From: a virus | Taxonomy: Duplodnaviria; Heunggongvirae; Uroviricota; Caudoviricetes | Direction: 5' to 3' (one strand) | Length of the DNA stretch: 43,639 nucleotides | IMG/VR virus record: IMGVR_UViG_2617270952_000006 | The notes under the pieces: generated by a model | The model's input: the letters and a program-made list of their open reading frames with translations, nothing else | Databases searched by the model: none | Told to the model about the DNA's origin: nothing | Program-made: the position numbers and the translations under genes | In this document: piece by piece, positions 1 through 43,639 of the stretch | Position numbering within the stretch: the stretch's first letter is position 1 | Layout of the letters: each line of letters begins with the position of its first letter

Positions 1-162
1 TGGCAACTGCAGTTCACTTACACCGCTTCTCAACCCGGTACGCACCAGAAAATCATTGATATGGCCATGAATGGCGTTGGATGCCGGGCAACTGCCCGCA
101 TTATGGGCGTTGGCCTCAACACGATTTTACGTCACTTAAAAAACTCAGGCCGCAGTCGGTAA
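1..162 (+). CDS. insA: IS1 InsA, C-terminal part (5' end cut by window edge)
   Basis: Frame 1 reads [53 protein letters not shown] then taa at 160-162, the InsA C terminus. Confidence 0.9.
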
Positions 163-584
163 CCTCGCGCATACAGCCGGGCAGTGACGTCATCGTCTGC
201 GCGGAAATGGACGAACAGTGGGGCTATGTCGGGGCTAAATCGCGCCAGCGCTGGCTGTTTTACGCGTATGACAGTCTCCGGAAGACGGTTGTTGCGCACG
301 TATTCGGTGAACGCACTATGGCGACGCTGGGGCGTCTTATGAGCCTGCTGTCACCCTTTGACGTGGTGATATGGATGACGGATGGCTGGCCGCTGTATGA
401 ATCCCGCCTGAAGGGAAAGCTGCACGTAATCAGCAAGCGATATACGCAGCGAATTGAGCGGCATAACCTGAATCTGAGGCAGCACCTGGCACGGCTGGGA
501 CGGAAGTCGCTGTCGTTCTCAAAATCGGTGGAGCTGCATGACAAAGTCATCGGGTATTATCTGAACATAAAACACTATCAATAA
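81..584 (+). CDS. insB: IS1 transposase InsB frame (made as InsAB' fusion by -1 frameshift)
   Basis: 167-aa [25 protein letters not shown]...IKHYQ recognised as IS1 InsB; overlaps the insA end. Confidence 0.92.
138..144 (+). promoter_or_regulatory. IS1 A6C programmed -1 frameshift motif
   Basis: ttaaaaaactc in the insA/insB overlap, the known IS1 slippery run. Confidence 0.7.
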
Positions 585-2953: not shown

Positions 2954-3028
2954 GTCCTCTTAGTTAAATGGATATAACGAGCCCCTCCTAAGGGCTAATT
3001 GCAGGTTCGATTCCTGCAGGGGACACCA
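2954..3028 (+). tRNA. argW: tRNA-Arg (anticodon CCU), prophage integration target
   Basis: gtcctct...agggga acceptor pairing, anticodon loop ctCCTaa, T arm gcaggttcgattcctgc, encoded CCA; 75 nt. Confidence 0.95.
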
Positions 3029-3123
3029 TTTATCAGTTCGCTCCCATCCGTACCAGTCCGCAAAATCCCCTGAATATCAAGCCTTCCGTAGATTCACAGT
3101 TCGTAATGGTTCGCGTCAGATCG

Positions 3124-3153
3124 TTGACAGCCGCACTCCATGACGGGTAAAAA
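3124..3153 (+). promoter_or_regulatory. Candidate intS promoter inside attL
   Basis: Perfect TTGACA (3124-3129), 18-bp spacer, TAAAAA (3148-3153), 37 nt before the intS ATG. Confidence 0.4.
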
Positions 3154-3190
3154 GTGGATAAAATAATTTTACCCACCGGATTTTTACCCA
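3145..3190. repeat. Three copies of TTTTACCC (one inverted) over the intS promoter and start
   Basis: gggtaaaaa at 3145-3153 (inverted), ttttaccca at 3167-3175 and 3182-3190. Candidate integrase/RDF binding sites. Confidence 0.4.
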
Positions 3191-4347
3191 TGCTCACCGT
3201 TAAGCAGATTGAAGCAGCAAAGCCGAAAGAAAAACCATACCGCCTACTCGATGGTAATGGCCTGTACCTTTATGTCCCTGTGTCAGGGAAAAAGGTATGG
3301 CAGCTTCGCTACAAGATTGACGGTAAGGAGAAAATCCTGACCGTAGGAAAATATCCGCTAATGACTTTGCAGGAGGCAAGAGATAAAGCATGGACCGCGA
3401 GGAAAGACATCTCGGTTGGCATCGATCCGGTAAAAGCGAAAAAGGCTTCGTCTAACAACAATTCCTTTAGTGCAATTTACAAGGAATGGTACGAACACAA
3501 GAAGCAAGTCTGGTCAGTAGGGTATGCGACTGAACTTGCAAAAATGTTTGATGACGACATTTTACCCATCATCGGCGGTCTTGAGATTCAGGATATTGAG
3601 CCGATGCAACTGCTGGAAGTAATCCGCAGATTTGAAGATCGCGGTGCAATGGAGCGAGCCAACAAAGCCCGCAGAAGATGCGGCGAGGTTTTCCGTTACG
3701 CTATTGTCACTGGTAGGGCTAAATATAACCCGGCACCTGACCTTGCAGACGCCATGAAAGGATACCGCAAGAAGAACTTCCCGTTTCTTCCTGCAGACCA
3801 GATCCCTGCATTCAACAAAGCACTGGCAACATTTTCAGGAAGCATCGTATCGCTCATTGCGACCAAAGTTTTACGCTACACAGCCCTAAGAACGAAAGAG
3901 CTTCGTTCCATGCAATGGAAGAACGTCGATTTTGAAAACAGGATTATCACTATCGACGCCAGTGTGATGAAGGGCCGCAAGATTCATGTTGTTCCTATGT
4001 CAGACCAGGTGGTTGAACTTCTCACTACGCTAAGCTCCATCACTAAACCAGTATCAGAGTTTGTTTTTGCCGGGCGCAACGATAAGAAGAAGCCAATCTG
4101 CGAGAACGCGGTATTGCTTGTTATCAAACAAATCGGCTATGAGGGTCTGGAAAGCGGTCACGGATTCAGGCATGAATTCAGCACAATTATGAACGAGCAC
4201 GAATGGCCTGCTGACGCTATTGAAGTGCAACTGGCACATGCCAACGGCGGATCTGTGCGTGGAATTTACAACCATGCTCAGTATCTCGATAAGCGCAGAG
4301 AAATGATGCAGTGGTGGGCGGACTGGCTTGATGAAAAGGGGGAGTGA
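3190..4347 (+). CDS. intS: Tyrosine integrase, IntS (KplE1/CPS-53, Sf6, HK620 type)
   Basis: 385 aa from MLTVKQIEAAKPKEKPYRLLDGNGLYLYV; C-terminal HGFRHEF...HANGGSVRGIYNHAQY catalytic motifs; adjacent to argW as in K-12. The GTG at 3154 in the ORF track is probably not the start. Confidence 0.93.
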   Translation: MLTVKQIEAAKPKEKPYRLLDGNGLYLYVPVSGKKVWQLRYKIDGKEKILTVGKYPLMTLQEARDKAWTARKDISVGIDPVKAKKASSNNNSFSAIYKEWYEHKKQVWSVGYATELAKMFDDDILPIIGGLEIQDIEPMQLLEVIRRFEDRGAMERANKARRRCGEVFRYAIVTGRAKYNPAPDLADAMKGYRKKNFPFLPADQIPAFNKALATFSGSIVSLIATKVLRYTALRTKELRSMQWKNVDFENRIITIDASVMKGRKIHVVPMSDQVVELLTTLSSITKPVSEFVFAGRNDKKKPICENAVLLVIKQIGYEGLESGHGFRHEFSTIMNEHEWPADAIEVQLAHANGGSVRGIYNHAQYLDKRREMMQWWADWLDEKGE

Positions 4348-30937: not shown

Positions 30938-31114
30938 TCATTTCCTCGCACGATATCTTAGCCACCGGATATCCCACAGGTGAGCTGTGTAATTGAAGGT
31001 TTTTACGTCAGATTCTTTTGGGATTGGCTTGCGTTTATTTCTGGAGCGTTTCGTTGGAAGGTATTTGCAGTTTTCGCAGATGATGTCGGTGAAACTTCGT
31101 CGCTGTCGCCTCAT
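30938..31114 (-). CDS. ninE: NinE
   Basis: [53 protein letters not shown] matches lambda NinE; ATGA overlap with the upstream gene. Confidence 0.88.
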
Positions 31115-31638
31115 GCCGCCCTCCTGACGCCCTGCCCGATCGCCATCAATGCCGCTTTGGATACGGTAGTAAACATCCGTCGAGGACTGATGAACGGTCG
31201 CCAAATCAGCAGCATGGAGCCTTTGCTGTTTCCCTTCTTCTCCAGCCCTGTCGATGGTTCGATAAAATTAATCCGTCCATCAGTGATAATGCGAACTTCG
31301 TCGACACTCTCCAGAGCCTTGCTGAACCATCCGACTGACATATCCTCTGGCACAAGCATAACTACCGTCTGTCGCTGTTGTATGCACTGCTCAGCGGCTT
31401 TTTCCACCCACGGCCTGATATTGCTGTACGGTGGGTTATTCCAGATTGCACCGTGGCTTACCCACTCAGAATTGAGCGCGTCGTCGGCCTCAGTTAGCCA
31501 GTGAGCACACAGAGCATTTTTGTCGCTCGCTGCCGAATCCAGCCAGAATCCAAACTCAATATCCAGTGCATCAAAAAGCCAAAGCGGCGTTTGCCAGCAG
31601 TCCTTGTCGTGTGCTGGCGTATTTGATTTGATAGTCAT
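31111..31638 (-). CDS. Phage N6-adenine DNA methyltransferase (Dam-like, orphan)
   Basis: 175 aa from [23 protein letters not shown]; catalytic NPPY motif (IWNNPPYS); no cognate nuclease nearby. Confidence 0.85.
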
Positions 31639-32075
31639 GCTGCCCGATCTCCCCATCGCGCTTTCCATTCGAGAGCCAGTCGCGCTTCGTCTGACCACTT
31701 AACGCCACGCTCTGTACCGAATGCCTGTATAAGCTCTAATAGCTCCGCAAATTCGCTTACACGCATCCTGCTGGTTGACTGGCCTATTACCACAAAGCCA
31801 TTCCCGGCAAGGTTAGGAACAACATCCTGCTGCTTTAATGCTGCGGTAAACACACACTTCCAGCTTTCTGCATCCAGCCAGCGACCATGCCATTCAACCT
31901 GACGCGAAACGTCACCAAGGCAAGCCCAAAGCTTTCGATTCTGGTCTAAGCTGCGGTTGCGTTCCTGAATGGTTACTACGATTGGTTTGGTTGGGTCTGG
32001 AAGGATTTGCTGTACTGCGTGAATAGCGTTTTGCTGATGTGCTGGAGATCGAATTTCAAAGGTTAGTTTTTTCAT
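31635..32075 (-). CDS. ninB: NinB (Orf recombination mediator)
   Basis: MKKLTFEIRSPAHQQNAIHAVQQILPDPTKPIVVTIQERNRSLDQNRKLWA... matches lambda NinB. Confidence 0.93.
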   Translation of the reverse strand: MKKLTFEIRSPAHQQNAIHAVQQILPDPTKPIVVTIQERNRSLDQNRKLWACLGDVSRQVEWHGRWLDAESWKCVFTAALKQQDVVPNLAGNGFVVIGQSTSRMRVSEFAELLELIQAFGTERGVKWSDEARLALEWKARWGDRAA

Positions 32076-40227: not shown

Positions 40228-40395
40228 ATGAGAGGACTTGCATACAATCCCGGCATTCTTCCGGCAGAAATGATTATTCGCCAACGCGTAAAGCCAATGC
40301 CATCGAGAGAGGAATTGCTTAAGAGAAATTCTTTTCCATCAGTGAATCAAAACAAATATCTGAATGCGATGTGGCGCAAAGGAGGCAACCAGTGA
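40228..40395 (+). CDS. Small 55-aa hypothetical protein
   Basis: SD gagga before the ATG; stop overlaps the GTG start of the next gene (GTGA). Confidence 0.45.
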
Positions 40396-41054
40396 GCAAG
40401 ATTAACTATCAGGCACTACGTGATGCGGCAGAAAAGGCAACACAGGGTGAATGGGTCGCATTTATTTCGCCGGGCAAATACGGCACGTACGCCGTACACA
40501 CACCAGGTGATAATCATCACGGAGATATTGTCGACTGGCCAGGATTCGACGAACAGAAAAACGCAGAGAACAACGCTCGTTATATCGCAGCTTTCAACCC
40601 TGAAGTAGTGCAGGCGCTGCTGGATGAACGGGAAAGAAACCAGCAATACATCAAATCACGCGACAAGGAGAACGAGGAAATTGCGCTAACGGTAGGGAAG
40701 CTGCGTGTTGAGCTGGAAGCCGCAGAGAAGCGCAACGCAAAATTACAAAGCGAGAATGCATACATCCGCAACCGGTTCAAAGAACTGGACCTGTTAATCG
40801 GGAAAAACATTCTGGTCATGCAGGCTGCCATTATCGAATGGCAGGCAACTGGCGACGCTAAGAGCGGACTGGCATGGATTTATAACACACTGTTTGGCCC
40901 TGGCGAATTACCGGACGAATCTGAGAAAGATGCTCAGGCCTACTTTAATCGCAAATATGCACCGATTGACGAAAAGCTTATGGAGCTTCACAAGTGGTTT
41001 TGGGAACAAAGTGAAGCCGAGCGCGCTGCTGGTATTCGCATCAAAGGAGAGTGA
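40392..41054 (+). CDS. Ead/Ea22-like protein
   Basis: [21 protein letters not shown]...[19 protein letters not shown], typical Ea22-like N domain plus coiled coil; GTG start with SD ggagg. Confidence 0.75.
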
Positions 41055-41055
41055 T

Positions 41056-41622
41056 ATGAGCGCTATAACCAAAGAACGTATCGAATTATTCATTAAAAAT
41101 CCGCTTGATAACGGACTTACCCGTGGCGAACAAATGGAACTGGCACGAATTGCACTGGCATCACTGGCAGCAGTATCGGATGAACGAGCAGCCTATGAAT
41201 TATTTATGGAGAAGCGTTTCGGGGAATCTGTAGATCGCCGCAGGGCGAAAAATGGCGATAGAGAATACATGGCATGGGATATGGCGCTTGGCTGGATTAT
41301 CTGGTGTCACCGCGCCGCCATGCTTCAGACTGGAAACTTTCGGGAAAATAAGGATTCGTCAACCAATAATTTTCGGGAAACCTCGGAAACGTCAACCAAC
41401 TCTCCGGTAACTCCGGATAGTTGGATAAGCTGTAGTGAGCGGATGCCAGAGGACGGTCAGCACGTAATTATTTTATGTGATGGCGCATTCGTTCTTTATG
41501 CGCAATATCGAGACGGTGAGTTTTTTGATGTCGTCCGCAATGGTGAGGAGTTCTTCGAAACGCAGAGCCGCAATGTAACCGACTGGATGCCTCTACCAGA
41601 ACCGCCGCAGGAGGTGAAGTGA
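41056..41622 (+). CDS. DUF551-domain protein
   Basis: C-terminal WISCSERMPEDGQHVII...VTDWMPLPEPP is the DUF551 signature; SD aaggag. Confidence 0.7.
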   Translation: MSAITKERIELFIKNPLDNGLTRGEQMELARIALASLAAVSDERAAYELFMEKRFGESVDRRRAKNGDREYMAWDMALGWIIWCHRAAMLQTGNFRENKDSSTNNFRETSETSTNSPVTPDSWISCSERMPEDGQHVIILCDGAFVLYAQYRDGEFFDVVRNGEEFFETQSRNVTDWMPLPEPPQEVK

Positions 41623-41900
41623 TGGACTCCTTCGCGAAATATACGATCATTGACTGGATAGCATTCCTTCAGGTTTTGCTCATCTGGTTTTATATGGCTT
41701 ACAGGAGTGGGCAGTGGATTGTCAACATGGCCTGTAGCAGGGGATGGCGTTGGTGGAACCGAAAGAATAAAAAAGCACTGGCATTGGATTCGTTTTACGA
41801 AGCATTCAATCTTAACAGCCTTCAGCCTGGTTCTGTCATTGTAGTCACCACTCAAAGCGGCATGACCATTCAGATTCATAAACCAAAAGAGGAAAAATGA
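41622..41900 (+). CDS. 92-aa hypothetical membrane protein
   Basis: One hydrophobic, Trp-rich helix (IIDWIAFLQVLLIWFYMAY); start coupled to the upstream stop. Confidence 0.5.
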   Translation: MDSFAKYTIIDWIAFLQVLLIWFYMAYRSGQWIVNMACSRGWRWWNRKNKKALALDSFYEAFNLNSLQPGSVIVVTTQSGMTIQIHKPKEEK

Positions 41901-41986
41901 TGTGGCCTATATGTGTTAATTGCGGACGGATGTGCCTATCTGGATGGTGCCGAAAGTGCGACAAATGCACGAAGCAAAGACAATAA
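41897..41986 (+). CDS. 29-aa Cys-rich micro-ORF
   Basis: MMWPICVNCGRMCLSGWCRKCDKCTKQRQ, 6 Cys in CxxC-type spacing; ATGA overlap with the upstream gene; followed by a terminator. Confidence 0.35.
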   Translation: MMWPICVNCGRMCLSGWCRKCDKCTKQRQ

Positions 41987-41987
41987 C

Positions 41988-42016
41988 AATCCTCGCACTC
42001 GCGGGGATTTCTTTTA
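41988..42016 (+). terminator. Intrinsic terminator
   Basis: aatcctcgc-actc-gcggggatt followed by tctttta. Confidence 0.6.
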
Positions 42017-42028
42017 TATGGGGATAAT

Positions 42029-42829
42029 ATGACCATCCACTTTCACGGCAGCCCAATATGGGGTGATGAGCATGCCCCTACAGATATGCTGATTAAAGCC
42101 CTTTACCGTGATGGTGGGGCTTTTGTTTCATTTGCCAGACCAGAGCAGATGAAAAAGATTGCCATGTTCCCTTGTGATATACGCCTTGATAACGGTGCTT
42201 TTAGCGACTGGATGAAAGCATTAAAGAAAGGCACTCCGGTAGACTGGAGTAAGAGACGAGCAAAATTCTACGACTTTGTTGGGACGTGGTTCAGCAGAAT
42301 TGAATGGTTTCTTATACCTGACGTTATCGAAGGGACAGAGGCAGAAAACGACGAGCAGATTGAGTTGGTTCCTGATTGGCTAAAATCAAAAGCGGTTCCG
42401 GTCTGGCATACCGACGAATCAATTGAACGTCTTTTACGCCTTTCTGGCAAATTTGAATGGGTGGCGATTGGATGCTGCGGCCCACACAGGCACATACGCT
42501 CTAAATGGTGGGAACAGAGAATGGATGAAGTTTTTACTGAGATTTATATCAATCGTAATTTGAAAGTGAAAATTCATGGTCTTCGAATGCTCGACGTGAG
42601 AGTTCTTGGTATGTATCCGTTCGCCAGTGCGGATTCTACTAATGTTGCTGTTAACGTACCGAAGACAGAGAAGCGATTTCCTGAGATTACCGACAAACTG
42701 GCACGTACAGCTGTACTTCGCGCAGCTATTGAAAAGGTGCACCCACCATCGATATCAGCATGGGTAGACAGAAAGAGGAGAGAGCCGGCGCAAGCCGGTT
42801 TTTTATTTGAATTCACCGACGCCGCTTAA
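42029..42829 (+). CDS. Divergent TGT-superfamily / DpdA-like transglycosylase (candidate 7-deazaguanine DNA modification enzyme)
   Basis: 266 aa with collinear TGT-barrel motifs: IRLDNGAF (D54), FLIPDVIEG (D98), VPVWH, VAIGCCG, KIHGLRML, FASADST (D202). No Zn subdomain. Confidence 0.5.
   Translation: MTIHFHGSPIWGDEHAPTDMLIKALYRDGGAFVSFARPEQMKKIAMFPCDIRLDNGAFSDWMKALKKGTPVDWSKRRAKFYDFVGTWFSRIEWFLIPDVIEGTEAENDEQIELVPDWLKSKAVPVWHTDESIERLLRLSGKFEWVAIGCCGPHRHIRSKWWEQRMDEVFTEIYINRNLKVKIHGLRMLDVRVLGMYPFASADSTNVAVNVPKTEKRFPEITDKLARTAVLRAAIEKVHPPSISAWVDRKRREPAQAGFLFEFTDAA
42784..42808 (+). terminator. Intrinsic terminator overlapping the last codons of the DpdA-like gene
   Basis: gccggc-gcaa-gccggt followed by tttttattt. 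Confidence 0.55.
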
Positions 42830-42886
42830 TGCGGATTTCTTTTATCTGAACTCGCTACGGCGGGTTTTGTTTTATGGAGATGATAA

Positions 42887-43054
42887 ATGCACTTCCGAGT
42901 CACAGGTGAATGGAATGGAGAGCCATTCAACAGGGTTATCGAAGCAGAGGACATCAACGACTGCTATAACCACTGGATGATATGGGCGCAGATAGCGCAT
43001 GCAGACGTAACCAATATTCGAATTGAAGAACTGAAAGAACACCAAGACGCCTGA
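42887..43054 (+). CDS. Small 55-aa hypothetical protein
   Basis: SD ggag; MHFRVTGEWNGEPFNRVIEAEDINDCYNHWMIWAQIAHADVTNIRIEELKEHQDA; below the ORF-track cutoff. Confidence 0.5.
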   Translation: MHFRVTGEWNGEPFNRVIEAEDINDCYNHWMIWAQIAHADVTNIRIEELKEHQDA

Positions 43055-43078
43055 TGGCGGTTTTTTTGGGGGTAGTAG

Positions 43079-43294
43079 ATGGCTGCAATTCACATTGTAT
43101 CAATAACATGCAATGCAATTCAGATAGTTGCTTGCATTATCTTTGTTTTCTCAATCCTTCGCTCCCGACGATATTCTCCAGCAATTAACCGACATCCTGC
43201 ACAAGTTGAAGCCGTCAGGATGGCTATAGAGCTACGAAATGAGATGAATAAGGCATTAATGGAGATGGAGAAACCATTCACTGACAAACATTAA
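43079..43294 (+). CDS. 71-aa hypothetical protein with N-terminal TM helix
   Basis: G-rich SD 6 nt upstream; IVSITCNAIQIVACIIFVFSIL hydrophobic segment. Confidence 0.45.
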   Translation: MAAIHIVSITCNAIQIVACIIFVFSILRSRRYSPAINRHPAQVEAVRMAIELRNEMNKALMEMEKPFTDKH

Positions 43295-43371
43295 GAGTGG
43301 AAATAAAGAAATCACACCGCCTCACACTCGATGAGGCATTTTCATTTATCAAGATATCCAGACCTACCATC

Positions 43372-43393
43372 GCCGCATCAATGCGGTTTTTTT
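43372..43393 (+). terminator. Terminator-like hairpin upstream of xis
   Basis: ccgc-atcaat-gcgg followed by ttttttt. Confidence 0.45.
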
Positions 43394-43438
43394 ATTGCCT
43401 GATTTGCAGGTTTGATTCCCTATTTGGAGATAGCACTC

Positions 43439-43639
43439 ATGCAACACGAACTACAGCCTGATTCACTGGTTGATTTGAAATTCATCATGGCCGATACTGG
43501 CTTCGGTAAAACCTTCATCTATGACCGGATTAAGTCCGGCGACCTGCCTAAAGCCAAAGTTATCCACGGACGAGCAAGATGGTTATATCGTGACCATTGT
43601 GAATTCAAAAATAAGCTCTTAAGCCGCGCCAATGGGTAA
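43439..43639 (+). CDS. xis: Excisionase / recombination directionality factor, TorI type
   Basis: 66 aa MQHELQPDSLVDLKFIMADTGFGKTFIYDRIKSGDLPKAKVIHGRARWLYRDHCEFKNKLLSRANG recognised as TorI (KplE1/HK620/Sf6 Xis); SD ggaga; stop is the last codon of the window. Confidence 0.9.
   Translation: MQHELQPDSLVDLKFIMADTGFGKTFIYDRIKSGDLPKAKVIHGRARWLYRDHCEFKNKLLSRANG

What the first reader, a model, noticed from the sequence alone, without database searches (positions are those of the whole stretch)
42029..42829. Solitary divergent DpdA/TGT-like transglycosylase next to xis
Seen: the 266-aa product carries, in the right order, short motifs matching the TIM-barrel core of tRNA-guanine transglycosylases and phage/bacterial DpdA as I remember them. 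The correspondences are IRLDNGAF (TDSGGFQ/LDSGGF), FLIPDVIEG (FDEC/DW), VPVWH (IIQG/PVLQG), VAIGCCG (AVGGL/GVGS), KIHGLRML (YLMGVG/LHGFG) and FASADST (MFDCV/FDS). No Zn-binding insertion and no preQ0 synthesis genes (folE, queC, queD, queE) are present in the prophage. Inference: the phage may exchange guanine in its own DNA for host-made preQ0 (E. coli makes preQ0 for queuosine) as an anti-restriction modification, using only this enzyme. A DpdA-only arrangement in a P22-like temperate phage, and this degree of divergence, would be unusual. The family call is motif-level only.
Basis: inference. Interest (0 to 1): 0.7.

Follow-up and report, generated by a model that had tools for sequence, protein, structure and literature searches.

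The report
Known DpdA-only phage DNA transglycosylase gene
This prophage gene is a real but already catalogued phage DpdA (an enzyme that swaps guanine in DNA for a 7-deazaguanine base). Its nearest measured relatives make only a sparse modification that gave no detectable restriction protection where that was tested, so the finding is correct but ordinary.

Summary
They coincide with the invariant columns of a large protein family.

The family call holds:
- PHROGs phrog_887 'queuine tRNA-ribosyltransferase', E=5e-102.
- Profile-profile match to the validated DpdA family of phages 9g and CAjan: 97.2%, E=3.5e-11.
- Conserved catalytic residues: D54 (with F58), D98, H127 and D202.

The arrangement is not unusual. 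The 98%-identical orthologue, phage HK106 gp29, is listed by name among 76 'DpdA-only' phages in Hutinet et al. 2019. The P22-like phage BTP1 carries a homologue in the same slot. The gene is in 82 of 5,426 complete E. coli genomes.

The two measured relatives, 7-11 and MED16, carry dADG at only 0.02-0.13% of G. MED16 showed no restriction protection. Broad preQ0-based anti-restriction is therefore unlikely.

Minor new details: close relatives usually pair the gene with a YhhQ/VUT transporter gene, and some fuse it to Dam.

The parts
42029..42829 (+). dpdA-like gene: 266-aa singleton phage DNA guanine transglycosylase (orthologue of HK106 gp29)
42188..42202 (+). codons for D54-N-G-A-F58: predicted general acid/base Asp and gating Phe (counterparts of bacterial DpdA Asp95 and Phe99)
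   Evidence: D54 is invariant and F58 nearly invariant. The stretch aligns with 9g 'LDSGAFS'. Residue roles are taken from PMC10164549. The mapping is by alignment, not by experiment.
42320..42322 (+). codon for D98: predicted base-binding Asp (counterpart of bacterial DpdA Asp130)
   Evidence: Invariant in A1. Aligns with the 'VLDG' Asp of 9g and CAjan in the MAFFT bridging alignment. The register was ambiguous in the single-sequence hhalign.
42407..42409 (+). codon for H127: predicted base-binding His (counterpart of bacterial DpdA His181; 'PVWH' aligns with 9g 'PCFH')
   Evidence: Invariant in A1 and in A3.
42632..42634 (+). codon for D202: predicted catalytic nucleophile (counterpart of bacterial DpdA Asp256 and, from my own knowledge, TGT Asp280; 'SADST' aligns with 9g 'SCDSS')
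   Evidence: Invariant in A1 and in A3. Its role is inferred from the D256A loss of activity in bacterial DpdA.
41988..42009 (+). terminator-like hairpin immediately upstream of the gene's ribosome-binding site; left cassette boundary
   Evidence: Pattern scan. Nucleotide homology to VUT-carrying relatives starts exactly at the ATG at 42029.
42779..42804 (+). terminator-like hairpin lying inside the last codons of the gene (roughly residues 251-259; residues 255-266 have pLDDT below 50 in the model)
   Evidence: Pattern scan: 9 terminator-like sites in 40300-43639 against 2.8 +/- 1.6 expected. pLDDT below 50 for residues 255-266.

Best explanation
The gene encodes a phage DpdA-type DNA guanine transglycosylase of the 'singleton' (DpdA-only) gamma-proteobacterial clade.

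Shown here: it is homologous to experimentally validated phage DpdAs, has the TGT/DpdA barrel fold, keeps the catalytic residues, and is under purifying selection.

Inferred mechanism: the gene has no promoter-like site of its own and sits in the early-left operon, so it would be made after prophage induction. D202 attacks C1' of a target deoxyguanosine in double-stranded phage DNA. D54 protonates the leaving guanine, giving a covalent enzyme-DNA intermediate. A host-made 7-deazaguanine base then takes guanine's place. That base would be preQ0 from the host FolE/QueD/QueE/QueC pathway, or its amide ADG.

Inferred outcome, from the measured relatives: the modification is sparse. At 50-354 per 10^6 nt, a roughly 40-kb genome would carry about 4-30 modified bases, probably as dADG. 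It is therefore a rare or site-specific mark and not bulk substitution. Its benefit to the phage is unknown.

Confidence by step: about 0.95 that it is a DpdA-family homologue, about 0.65-0.7 that it inserts a 7-deazaguanine base into DNA, and lower that the product is sparse dADG. The single figure given is for the whole statement.
For: Family and fold:
- phrog_887, E=5e-102.
- hhalign of the family profile against 9g DpdA: 94.7%, E=6e-8. Against a 9g/CAjan/MS1 profile: 97.2%, E=3.5e-11.
- AF2 model with pLDDT 90.4 and pTM 0.87.
- In the viral structure library, every named hit with E<=1e-3 is a phage 'queuine/queuosine tRNA-ribosyltransferase'.

Active site: D54, F58, D98, H127 and D202 are conserved. 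They map onto Asp95, Phe99, Asp130, His181 and Asp256 of solved DpdA, where D95A and D256A abolish activity.

Selection: dN/dS is 0.07-0.2 in four of five informative orthologue pairs (0.54 for L035, with only 12 differences).

DNA as substrate:
- A 75%-identical homologue is fused to a Dam DNA methyltransferase on three independent contigs.
- 9g dpdA does not complement E. coli tgt, and CAjan with dpdA deleted loses all modification.

Link to 7-deazaguanine:
- A YhhQ/VUT-family gene abuts the homologue in 20 of 25 viral loci at 58-87% identity, and also in Phleasolo and MS1. A DUF165 gene does so in a Rhizobium phage.
- QueD abuts it in Caulobacter phage DMCA.

Host supply is sufficient: 9g DpdA or nt-1 DpdA2 expressed alone modify plasmid DNA in E. 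coli, and not in a queD mutant.

Sparse dADG: 7-11 (58% identical) has 50 dADG per 10^6 nt. MED16 (43% identical) has 354 dADG and 3 dPreQ0 per 10^6 nt.
Against: No member of this singleton clade has been tested genetically or biochemically. The dADG in 7-11 and MED16 is only correlated with their dpdA genes.

Nothing known in these phages would convert preQ0 to ADG; bacteria use DpdC for that step.

Sequence links to canonical TGT fail: no hit in Pfam, NCBIfam or PADLOC, none in the PDB by sequence or profile, and hhalign against E. coli Tgt gives 0.4%.

The structural zinc site of TGT and bacterial DpdA is absent.

The D98 register differs between alignments.

No benefit of such sparse modification is known.
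Confidence: 0.68

Rival explanations
1. The enzyme replaces a large fraction of guanines with host-made preQ0, and so gives broad protection against restriction enzymes, as in CAjan or 9g.
For: Validated DpdA1 phages replace 25-32% of G and resist many restriction enzymes. E. coli makes preQ0, and a phage DpdA alone can use it.
Against: Measured DpdA-only relatives carry only 0.02-0.13% of G modified, as dADG. MED16 DNA was cut by EcoRI, EcoRV, HaeIII, BamHI and others. CAjan lacking its own queC has 12-fold less dPreQ0 and is no longer protected. DpdA alone in E. coli reaches only about 0.3% of G.
Confidence: 0.1
2. The singleton clade has diverged in function. It keeps the TGT-like barrel but acts on something other than phage DNA guanine exchange. 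Candidates are host tRNA, a protein (as Cap10 of type IV CBASS does), or base excision without insertion.
Against: The profile match is to phage DpdA, at 97.2%, and there was no PADLOC hit of any kind. No CD-NTase or QueC-like gene lies nearby. The Dam fusion points to DNA. Tight coupling to YhhQ/VUT points to a 7-deazaguanine base being consumed. Relatives do carry dADG in their DNA. 9g DpdA does not act on tRNA.
Confidence: 0.12
3. The gene is a decaying, non-functional passenger in the mosaic ea region.
For: It has lost the VUT partner that most close relatives carry. PGAP calls it a hypothetical protein.
Against: The ORF is intact in 79 of the 82 E. coli genomes that carry it. dN/dS is 0.07-0.2 in most pairs. 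All catalytic residues are invariant. By established knowledge E. coli has its own chromosomal yhhQ, so a phage copy is dispensable.
Confidence: 0.03

Closest known systems
Escherichia phage HK106 gp29 (YP_007151699), and the 'DpdA-only' third group of Hutinet et al. 2019 (PMC6884629)
   Same: 97.7% amino-acid identity and the same length. Same slot: after the DUF4752 gene and the 29-aa ORF, before the lambdap35-like gene and xis. No preQ0 genes in the phage.
   Different: The host phage backbone differs. HK106 is a lambda/HK97-like siphovirus. This window is an Sf6/P22-like prophage at a tRNA-Arg(CCT) gene.
DpdA of Salmonella phage 7-11 and of Pantoea phage MED16 (singleton clade, DNA measured by LC-MS/MS)
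   Same: 58% and 43% identity over more than 89% of the length. Both are DpdA-only, and MED16 also encodes a separate Dam methyltransferase, as this prophage does.
   Different: Both are virulent phages with different gene contexts. Their DNA has been measured (dADG at 50 and 354 per 10^6 nt); this prophage's DNA has not.
Lederbergvirus BTP1 gp23 and phage SfI_0034 (temperate P22-like and lambdoid DpdA-only phages)
   Same: Same early-left 'ea' region between Ea22-like genes and xis/int. Already listed as DpdA-only in 2019.
   Different: Only 35-37% identity, so they belong to a different sub-branch of the clade.
Phage DpdA1 of 9g and CAjan (experimentally validated DNA preQ0 insertases)
   Same: Homologous at 97.2% by hhalign. 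They share the D, D, H, H and D motifs, also get no Pfam TGT hit, and have no CxCxxC motif in the 9g sequence.
   Different: About 18-22% identity. 9g and CAjan proteins are about 50 residues longer and sit inside a full FolE/QueD/QueE/QueC cluster. They modify 25-32% of G.
Bacterial DpdA of the Dpd restriction-modification system (PDB 7ui4)
   Different: 16% identity. Bacterial DpdA is 413 aa with four insertions and a structural zinc site. It needs the DpdB ATPase and sits in a cluster of more than ten genes. None of that is present here.
tRNA-guanine transglycosylase (Tgt, PF01702)
   Different: No detectable sequence match (Pfam none; hhalign 0.4%). No zinc subdomain and no N-terminal lid. 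The validated phage relative does not complement tgt.

Membership tests
TGT/DpdA structural superfamily | (beta/alpha)8 barrel most similar to TGT or DpdA structures | tested here: met
TGT/DpdA structural superfamily | Three invariant active-site aspartates: general acid/base, base-binding and nucleophile | tested here: met
   D54, D98 and D202 are invariant in 46 homologues. D54 and D202 are invariant, and D98 nearly so, when 9g, CAjan and MS1 are added. The D98 register is ambiguous in one alignment.
TGT/DpdA structural superfamily | Structural zinc site (Cys/His cluster after the nucleophile) | tested here: not met
   The protein has only C49, C149 and C150, and no Cys after D202 (sequence). 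The validated 9g DpdA also has no CxCxxC motif, so this feature does not define phage DpdA.
Pfam PF01702 (TGT) | Score above the gathering threshold | tested here: not met
   No Pfam hit at E<=1. 9g DpdA also has none, whereas E. coli Tgt scores 560 bits.
Phage DpdA (DpdA1 sensu lato, Hutinet 2019) | Detectable homology to validated phage DpdA (9g, CAjan) | tested here: met
   hhalign 94.7% (E=6e-8) against 9g alone and 97.2% (E=3.5e-11) against the family profile. tblastn of 9g DpdA against the window hits only this ORF, at E=0.005.
Phage DpdA (DpdA1 sensu lato, Hutinet 2019) | Conserved His at 9g position 196, which DpdA2 lacks | tested here: met
   H183 ('KIHGL') aligns with 9g 'KVHGF' and is invariant.
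Phage DpdA (DpdA1 sensu lato, Hutinet 2019) | Inserts a 7-deazaguanine base into DNA | not testable with these tools
   Needs LC-MS/MS or a base-exchange assay. The only evidence is correlative, from relatives 7-11 and MED16.
DpdA-only ('third group', gamma-proteobacterial singleton cluster) | DpdA present, with no FolE, QueD, QueE, QueC or amidotransferase in the phage | tested here: met
   tblastn of pathway proteins against the window gave chance hits only. None was found in 79 related viral loci. The orthologue HK106 is listed by name in this group.
Bacterial Dpd restriction-modification system (bDpdA) | Co-located dpdB (ParB-like ATPase), dpdC and dpdD-K, with a match to the bacterial DpdA profile | tested here: not met
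   No PADLOC hit for this protein at E<=1. The neighbours are Ea22, DUF551, DUF4752 and xis. Neighbouring proteins were not scanned against PADLOC.
Type IV CBASS Cap10 | Match to a CBASS Cap10 profile, with a CD-NTase or Cap9 (QueC-like) neighbour | tested here: not met

The most novel reading that the evidence does not exclude
The singleton clade is not a weak copy of the bulk-substituting DpdAs. It is a minimal, salvage-dependent DNA-marking module. Its common form would be a two-gene YhhQ/VUT-DpdA cassette, sometimes fused to Dam. It would install a sparse, sequence-specific dADG mark by inserting ADG directly. dADG is also the self-mark of bacterial Dpd restriction-modification systems, so temperate enterobacterial phages might use it to pass Dpd-type restriction, or as an epigenetic or packaging signal. 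The E. coli version would have dropped the transporter because the host has its own yhhQ.
Probability: 0.2. Interest if true: 0.55.

Novelty: already known. Interest (0 to 1): 0.18.

Why it matters
As a discovery it matters little. The gene family, the DpdA-only arrangement in temperate enterobacterial phages, and this very orthologue were all published in 2019, and RefSeq and PHROGs already name it.

What stays open is a known question that this locus does not newly raise. What does a singleton DpdA do when it makes only about 0.02-0.13% dADG? How does ADG arise without DpdC?

The locus is a convenient test case, because a 99.3%-identical copy sits in a prophage of the laboratory strain E. 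coli W. The tight YhhQ/VUT coupling and the Dam fusion in close relatives add modest support for a reaction that acts on DNA and consumes a 7-deazaguanine base.

Tried and rejected
Searches that gave nothing:
- Pfam, NCBIfam and PADLOC scans of the protein: no hits. Pfam also misses the validated 9g DpdA, so this is uninformative.
- PDB sequence search with the single protein and with two profiles: no meaningful hits.
- hhalign of the family profile against a single E. coli Tgt sequence: 0.4%. The link to TGT cannot be made directly by sequence.
- Search for a remnant of the YhhQ/VUT gene upstream of the window gene: none.
- Supplementary tables of the 2023 subfamily paper are not held, so I could not confirm the formal subfamily label for HK106.
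- Two recent preprints (E. coli HS phages; defence glycosylases) say nothing about DpdA-only temperate phages.

Considered and rejected:
- Cap10-like protein modification: no profile hit and no CBASS neighbours.
- tRNA modification: 9g DpdA does not complement tgt, and the Dam fusion points to DNA.
- Pseudogene: intact ORF and low dN/dS.

Full report
**Observation.** The window has an ATG-initiated ORF at 42029..42829 on the + strand, encoding 266 aa. I searched 5.8 billion proteins and found 2,230 homologues at E<=1e-3. In an alignment of 46 of them, down to 44% identity, the invariant columns include D54, N55, D98, H127, G148, G151, H183, D202 and S203. The resemblance is therefore a conserved signature and not a chance pattern.

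**Family assignment.**
- Pfam, NCBIfam and PADLOC give no hit at E<=1. PDB sequence and profile searches give nothing useful.
- PHROGs places the protein in phrog_887, 'queuine tRNA-ribosyltransferase', at E=5e-102.
- The missing Pfam hit is uninformative. The experimentally validated DpdA of phage 9g also has none, whereas E. coli Tgt scores 560 bits.
- Profile-profile comparison of the family alignment with 9g DpdA gives 94.7% probability, E=6e-8. Against a profile of 9g, CAjan, MS1 and relatives it gives 97.2%, E=3.5e-11 over 145 columns.
- A direct comparison with a single E. coli Tgt sequence fails at 0.4%. The link to TGT runs through phage DpdA and through structure.
- An AlphaFold2 model built on the alignment is confident (pLDDT 90.4, pTM 0.87) and shows a beta/alpha barrel.
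- Foldseek against the PDB did not discriminate.
- Against viral predicted structures, 27 hits have E<=1e-3, and every named one is a phage 'queuine/queuosine tRNA-ribosyltransferase'.

**Active site.** The structural paper on bacterial DpdA defines Asp95 as general acid/base, Phe99 as gate, Asp130 and His181 as base contacts, and Asp256 as nucleophile. D95A and D256A are inactive. The enzyme also has a structural zinc site and depends on the DpdB ATPase.
- The window protein has D54-x3-F58, D98, H127 and D202.
- In a bridging alignment that includes 9g, CAjan and MS1, the residues D54, H127, G148, H183, D202 and S203 are invariant. D98 aligns with the 9g/CAjan 'VLDG' aspartate.
- That register was ambiguous in the single-sequence hhalign.
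- H183 corresponds to the conserved His196 of 9g DpdA noted by Hutinet et al..
- The protein has only three cysteines and none after D202, so the zinc site is absent. The 9g sequence also shows no CxCxxC motif.
- dN/dS against orthologues is 0.07-0.2 in four of five informative pairs (0.54 for L035, with only 12 differences), which indicates purifying selection.

**Context in the window.**
- Left end: an IS1 transposase gene, mlaA, a formate/nitrite-transporter-family gene, then tRNA-Arg(CCT) at 2954-3028.
- The prophage follows. Its integrase is at 3154-4347, and its structural genes match Sf6/P22-like phages at 95-96% identity.
- A Dam-family methyltransferase gene lies at 31111-31698 on the - strand.
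- The early-left operon ends with Ea22-like, DUF551, DUF4752, a 29-aa Cys-rich ORF, the dpdA-like gene, two small ORFs, and a xis gene at 43412-43639. The orthologous xis in E. coli MB50 is annotated TorI.
[quoted passage not shown] The prophage is DpdA-only.
- Terminator-like hairpins bracket the gene at 41988-42009 and 42779-42804. The second lies within the last codons.
- No sigma-70-like promoter was found on the gene's strand. Expression by read-through from the early-left promoter after induction is my inference.

**Already known.**
- The DNA is 97.9% identical to phage HK106, and the protein is 97.7% identical to HK106 gp29, YP_007151699. RefSeq names that protein queuine tRNA-ribosyltransferase, and it sits in the same slot before xis and int.
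- Supplementary Data 1 of Hutinet et al. 2019 (PMC6884629) lists HK106 YP_007151699 as a phage with DpdA and nothing else. The same list holds SfI, BTP1, SEN1, SPN3UB, SE131, PEAT2 and 7-11.
- The paper describes this 'third group' as its largest, with 76 phages. It notes that singleton DpdAs of gamma-proteobacterial phages form their own cluster. It suggests they may rely on host preQ0 or on uptake.
- BTP1, a P22-like Lederbergvirus, has its homologue between an Ea22-like gene and eaA, upstream of xis and int. SfI is similar.
Its DNA matched 82 of 5,426 complete E. coli genomes, including strain W, always on the chromosome and annotated 'hypothetical protein'.
- The arrangement and the degree of divergence are therefore not unusual.

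**What the enzyme probably does.**
- Validated relatives act on DNA. 9g dpdA does not complement E. coli tgt, and CAjan with dpdA deleted loses all modification.
- A phage DpdA alone can use the host pool. 9g DpdA alone gave 790 dPreQ0 per 10^6 nt in plasmids. nt-1 DpdA2 alone gave 926-1607 per 10^6 nt, and none in a queD mutant.
- Two members of the same singleton clade have been measured. Phage 7-11 (58% identical) has 50 dADG per 10^6 nt, about 0.02% of G, with dPreQ0 below detection.
- Phage MED16 (43% identical) has 354 dADG and 3 dPreQ0 per 10^6 nt. Its DNA was still cut by EcoRI, EcoRV, HaeIII, BamHI and others.
- CAjan lacking its own queC has 12-fold less dPreQ0 and is no longer protected.
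- Scaled to a roughly 40-kb genome, these levels mean about 4-30 modified bases. That is a sparse mark, not bulk substitution (my inference).
- How ADG arises without DpdC is unknown, and so is the benefit of the mark. No member of the clade has been tested genetically.

**New contextual evidence.**
- Among 79 related viral loci, none carries FolE, QueD, QueE or QueC.
- In 20 of the 25 loci whose homologue is 58-87% identical, a YhhQ/VUT-family gene ends at or overlaps the homologue's start codon. The CAjan homologue of this family is annotated as a putative preQ0 transporter.
- None of the 30 loci at 95% identity or more, the class that includes this window, has that gene.
- Nucleotide homology between the window and the VUT-carrying relatives begins exactly at the ATG at 42029.
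- The same coupling appears in Phleasolo and MS1, and with a DUF165 gene in a Rhizobium phage. QueD abuts the homologue in Caulobacter phage DMCA.
- A 75%-identical homologue is fused at its C-terminus to a Dam DNA adenine methyltransferase (PF05869, E=4e-58). It is preceded by Vut_1, sits in a prophage early region near an integrase, and occurs on three independent contigs.
- These associations support a reaction that acts on DNA and consumes a 7-deazaguanine base. They argue against Cap10-like or tRNA-directed alternatives.

**Verdict.**
- The claim of unusualness is not supported.
- This is an already catalogued gene, so interest is low. What remains is a known open question about the role of singleton DpdAs.

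Noticed in passing
window 2954-4347 and 43412-43639: The prophage lies next to tRNA-Arg(CCT), with the integrase at the left end and the TorI-like excisionase at the far right end. As I recall, this opposite-ends layout is the one described for the E. coli K-12 KplE1/CPS-53 element at argW. Here the prophage looks complete and is Sf6/P22-like.
   Followed up: partly
window 31111-31698 (-): The prophage encodes its own Dam-family DNA adenine methyltransferase (PF05869, E=9e-65). It is 49% identical to the Dam domain that is fused to the DpdA homologue in P0006. MED16 also carries both Dam and DpdA.
   Followed up: partly
L007-L009 6001-7383; L045 10001-11380: A DpdA-like and Dam methyltransferase fusion protein (460 aa), preceded by an overlapping Vut_1 gene, on three independent metagenomic prophage contigs plus one IMG/VR contig. 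I found no mention of such a fusion in the papers I read.
   Followed up: partly
L037-L060 and L085 (viral loci); window 42029: A VUT/YhhQ-family gene abuts the DpdA homologue in 20 of 25 loci at 58-87% identity, and in none of 30 loci at 95% or more. Homology between the window and the VUT-carrying relatives starts exactly at the dpdA ATG, which marks a sharp mosaic junction. Hutinet 2019 reported no correlation between YhhQ and any phage group.
   Followed up: yes
window 42779-42804: A strong terminator-like hairpin (11-pair stem followed by a T run) lies inside the last codons of dpdA. It covers part of the disordered C-terminal tail (pLDDT below 50 for residues 255-266). An 'AQAGF'-like tail recurs in several distant homologues, so the hairpin may be conserved as an RNA or DNA element.
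   Followed up: no
window 41897-41986: A 29-aa ORF with six cysteines (MMWPICVNCGRMCLSGWCRKCDKCTKQRQ). Its start overlaps the stop of the DUF4752 gene, and a hairpin follows it. A 29-aa ORF occupies the same position in HK106 (gp30).
   Followed up: no
window 40300-43639: Terminator-like hairpins are enriched in the ea/xis region: 9 found against 2.8 +/- 1.6 expected. They tend to sit at gene boundaries, as expected for mosaic cassette junctions in an antiterminated operon.
   Followed up: no
NZ_CP026085.1 and NZ_CM135829.1 (E. coli genomes collection): Two 4.83-Mb assemblies labelled 'DH5alpha' carry this prophage gene at 99.3% identity, as does E. coli W. As I recall, genuine DH5alpha is smaller and has no such prophage, so these records may be mislabelled.
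   Followed up: no
window 81-584: An IS1 transposase ORF (PF03400, E=3e-77) sits at the left edge of the window, next to mlaA and outside the prophage.
   Followed up: no
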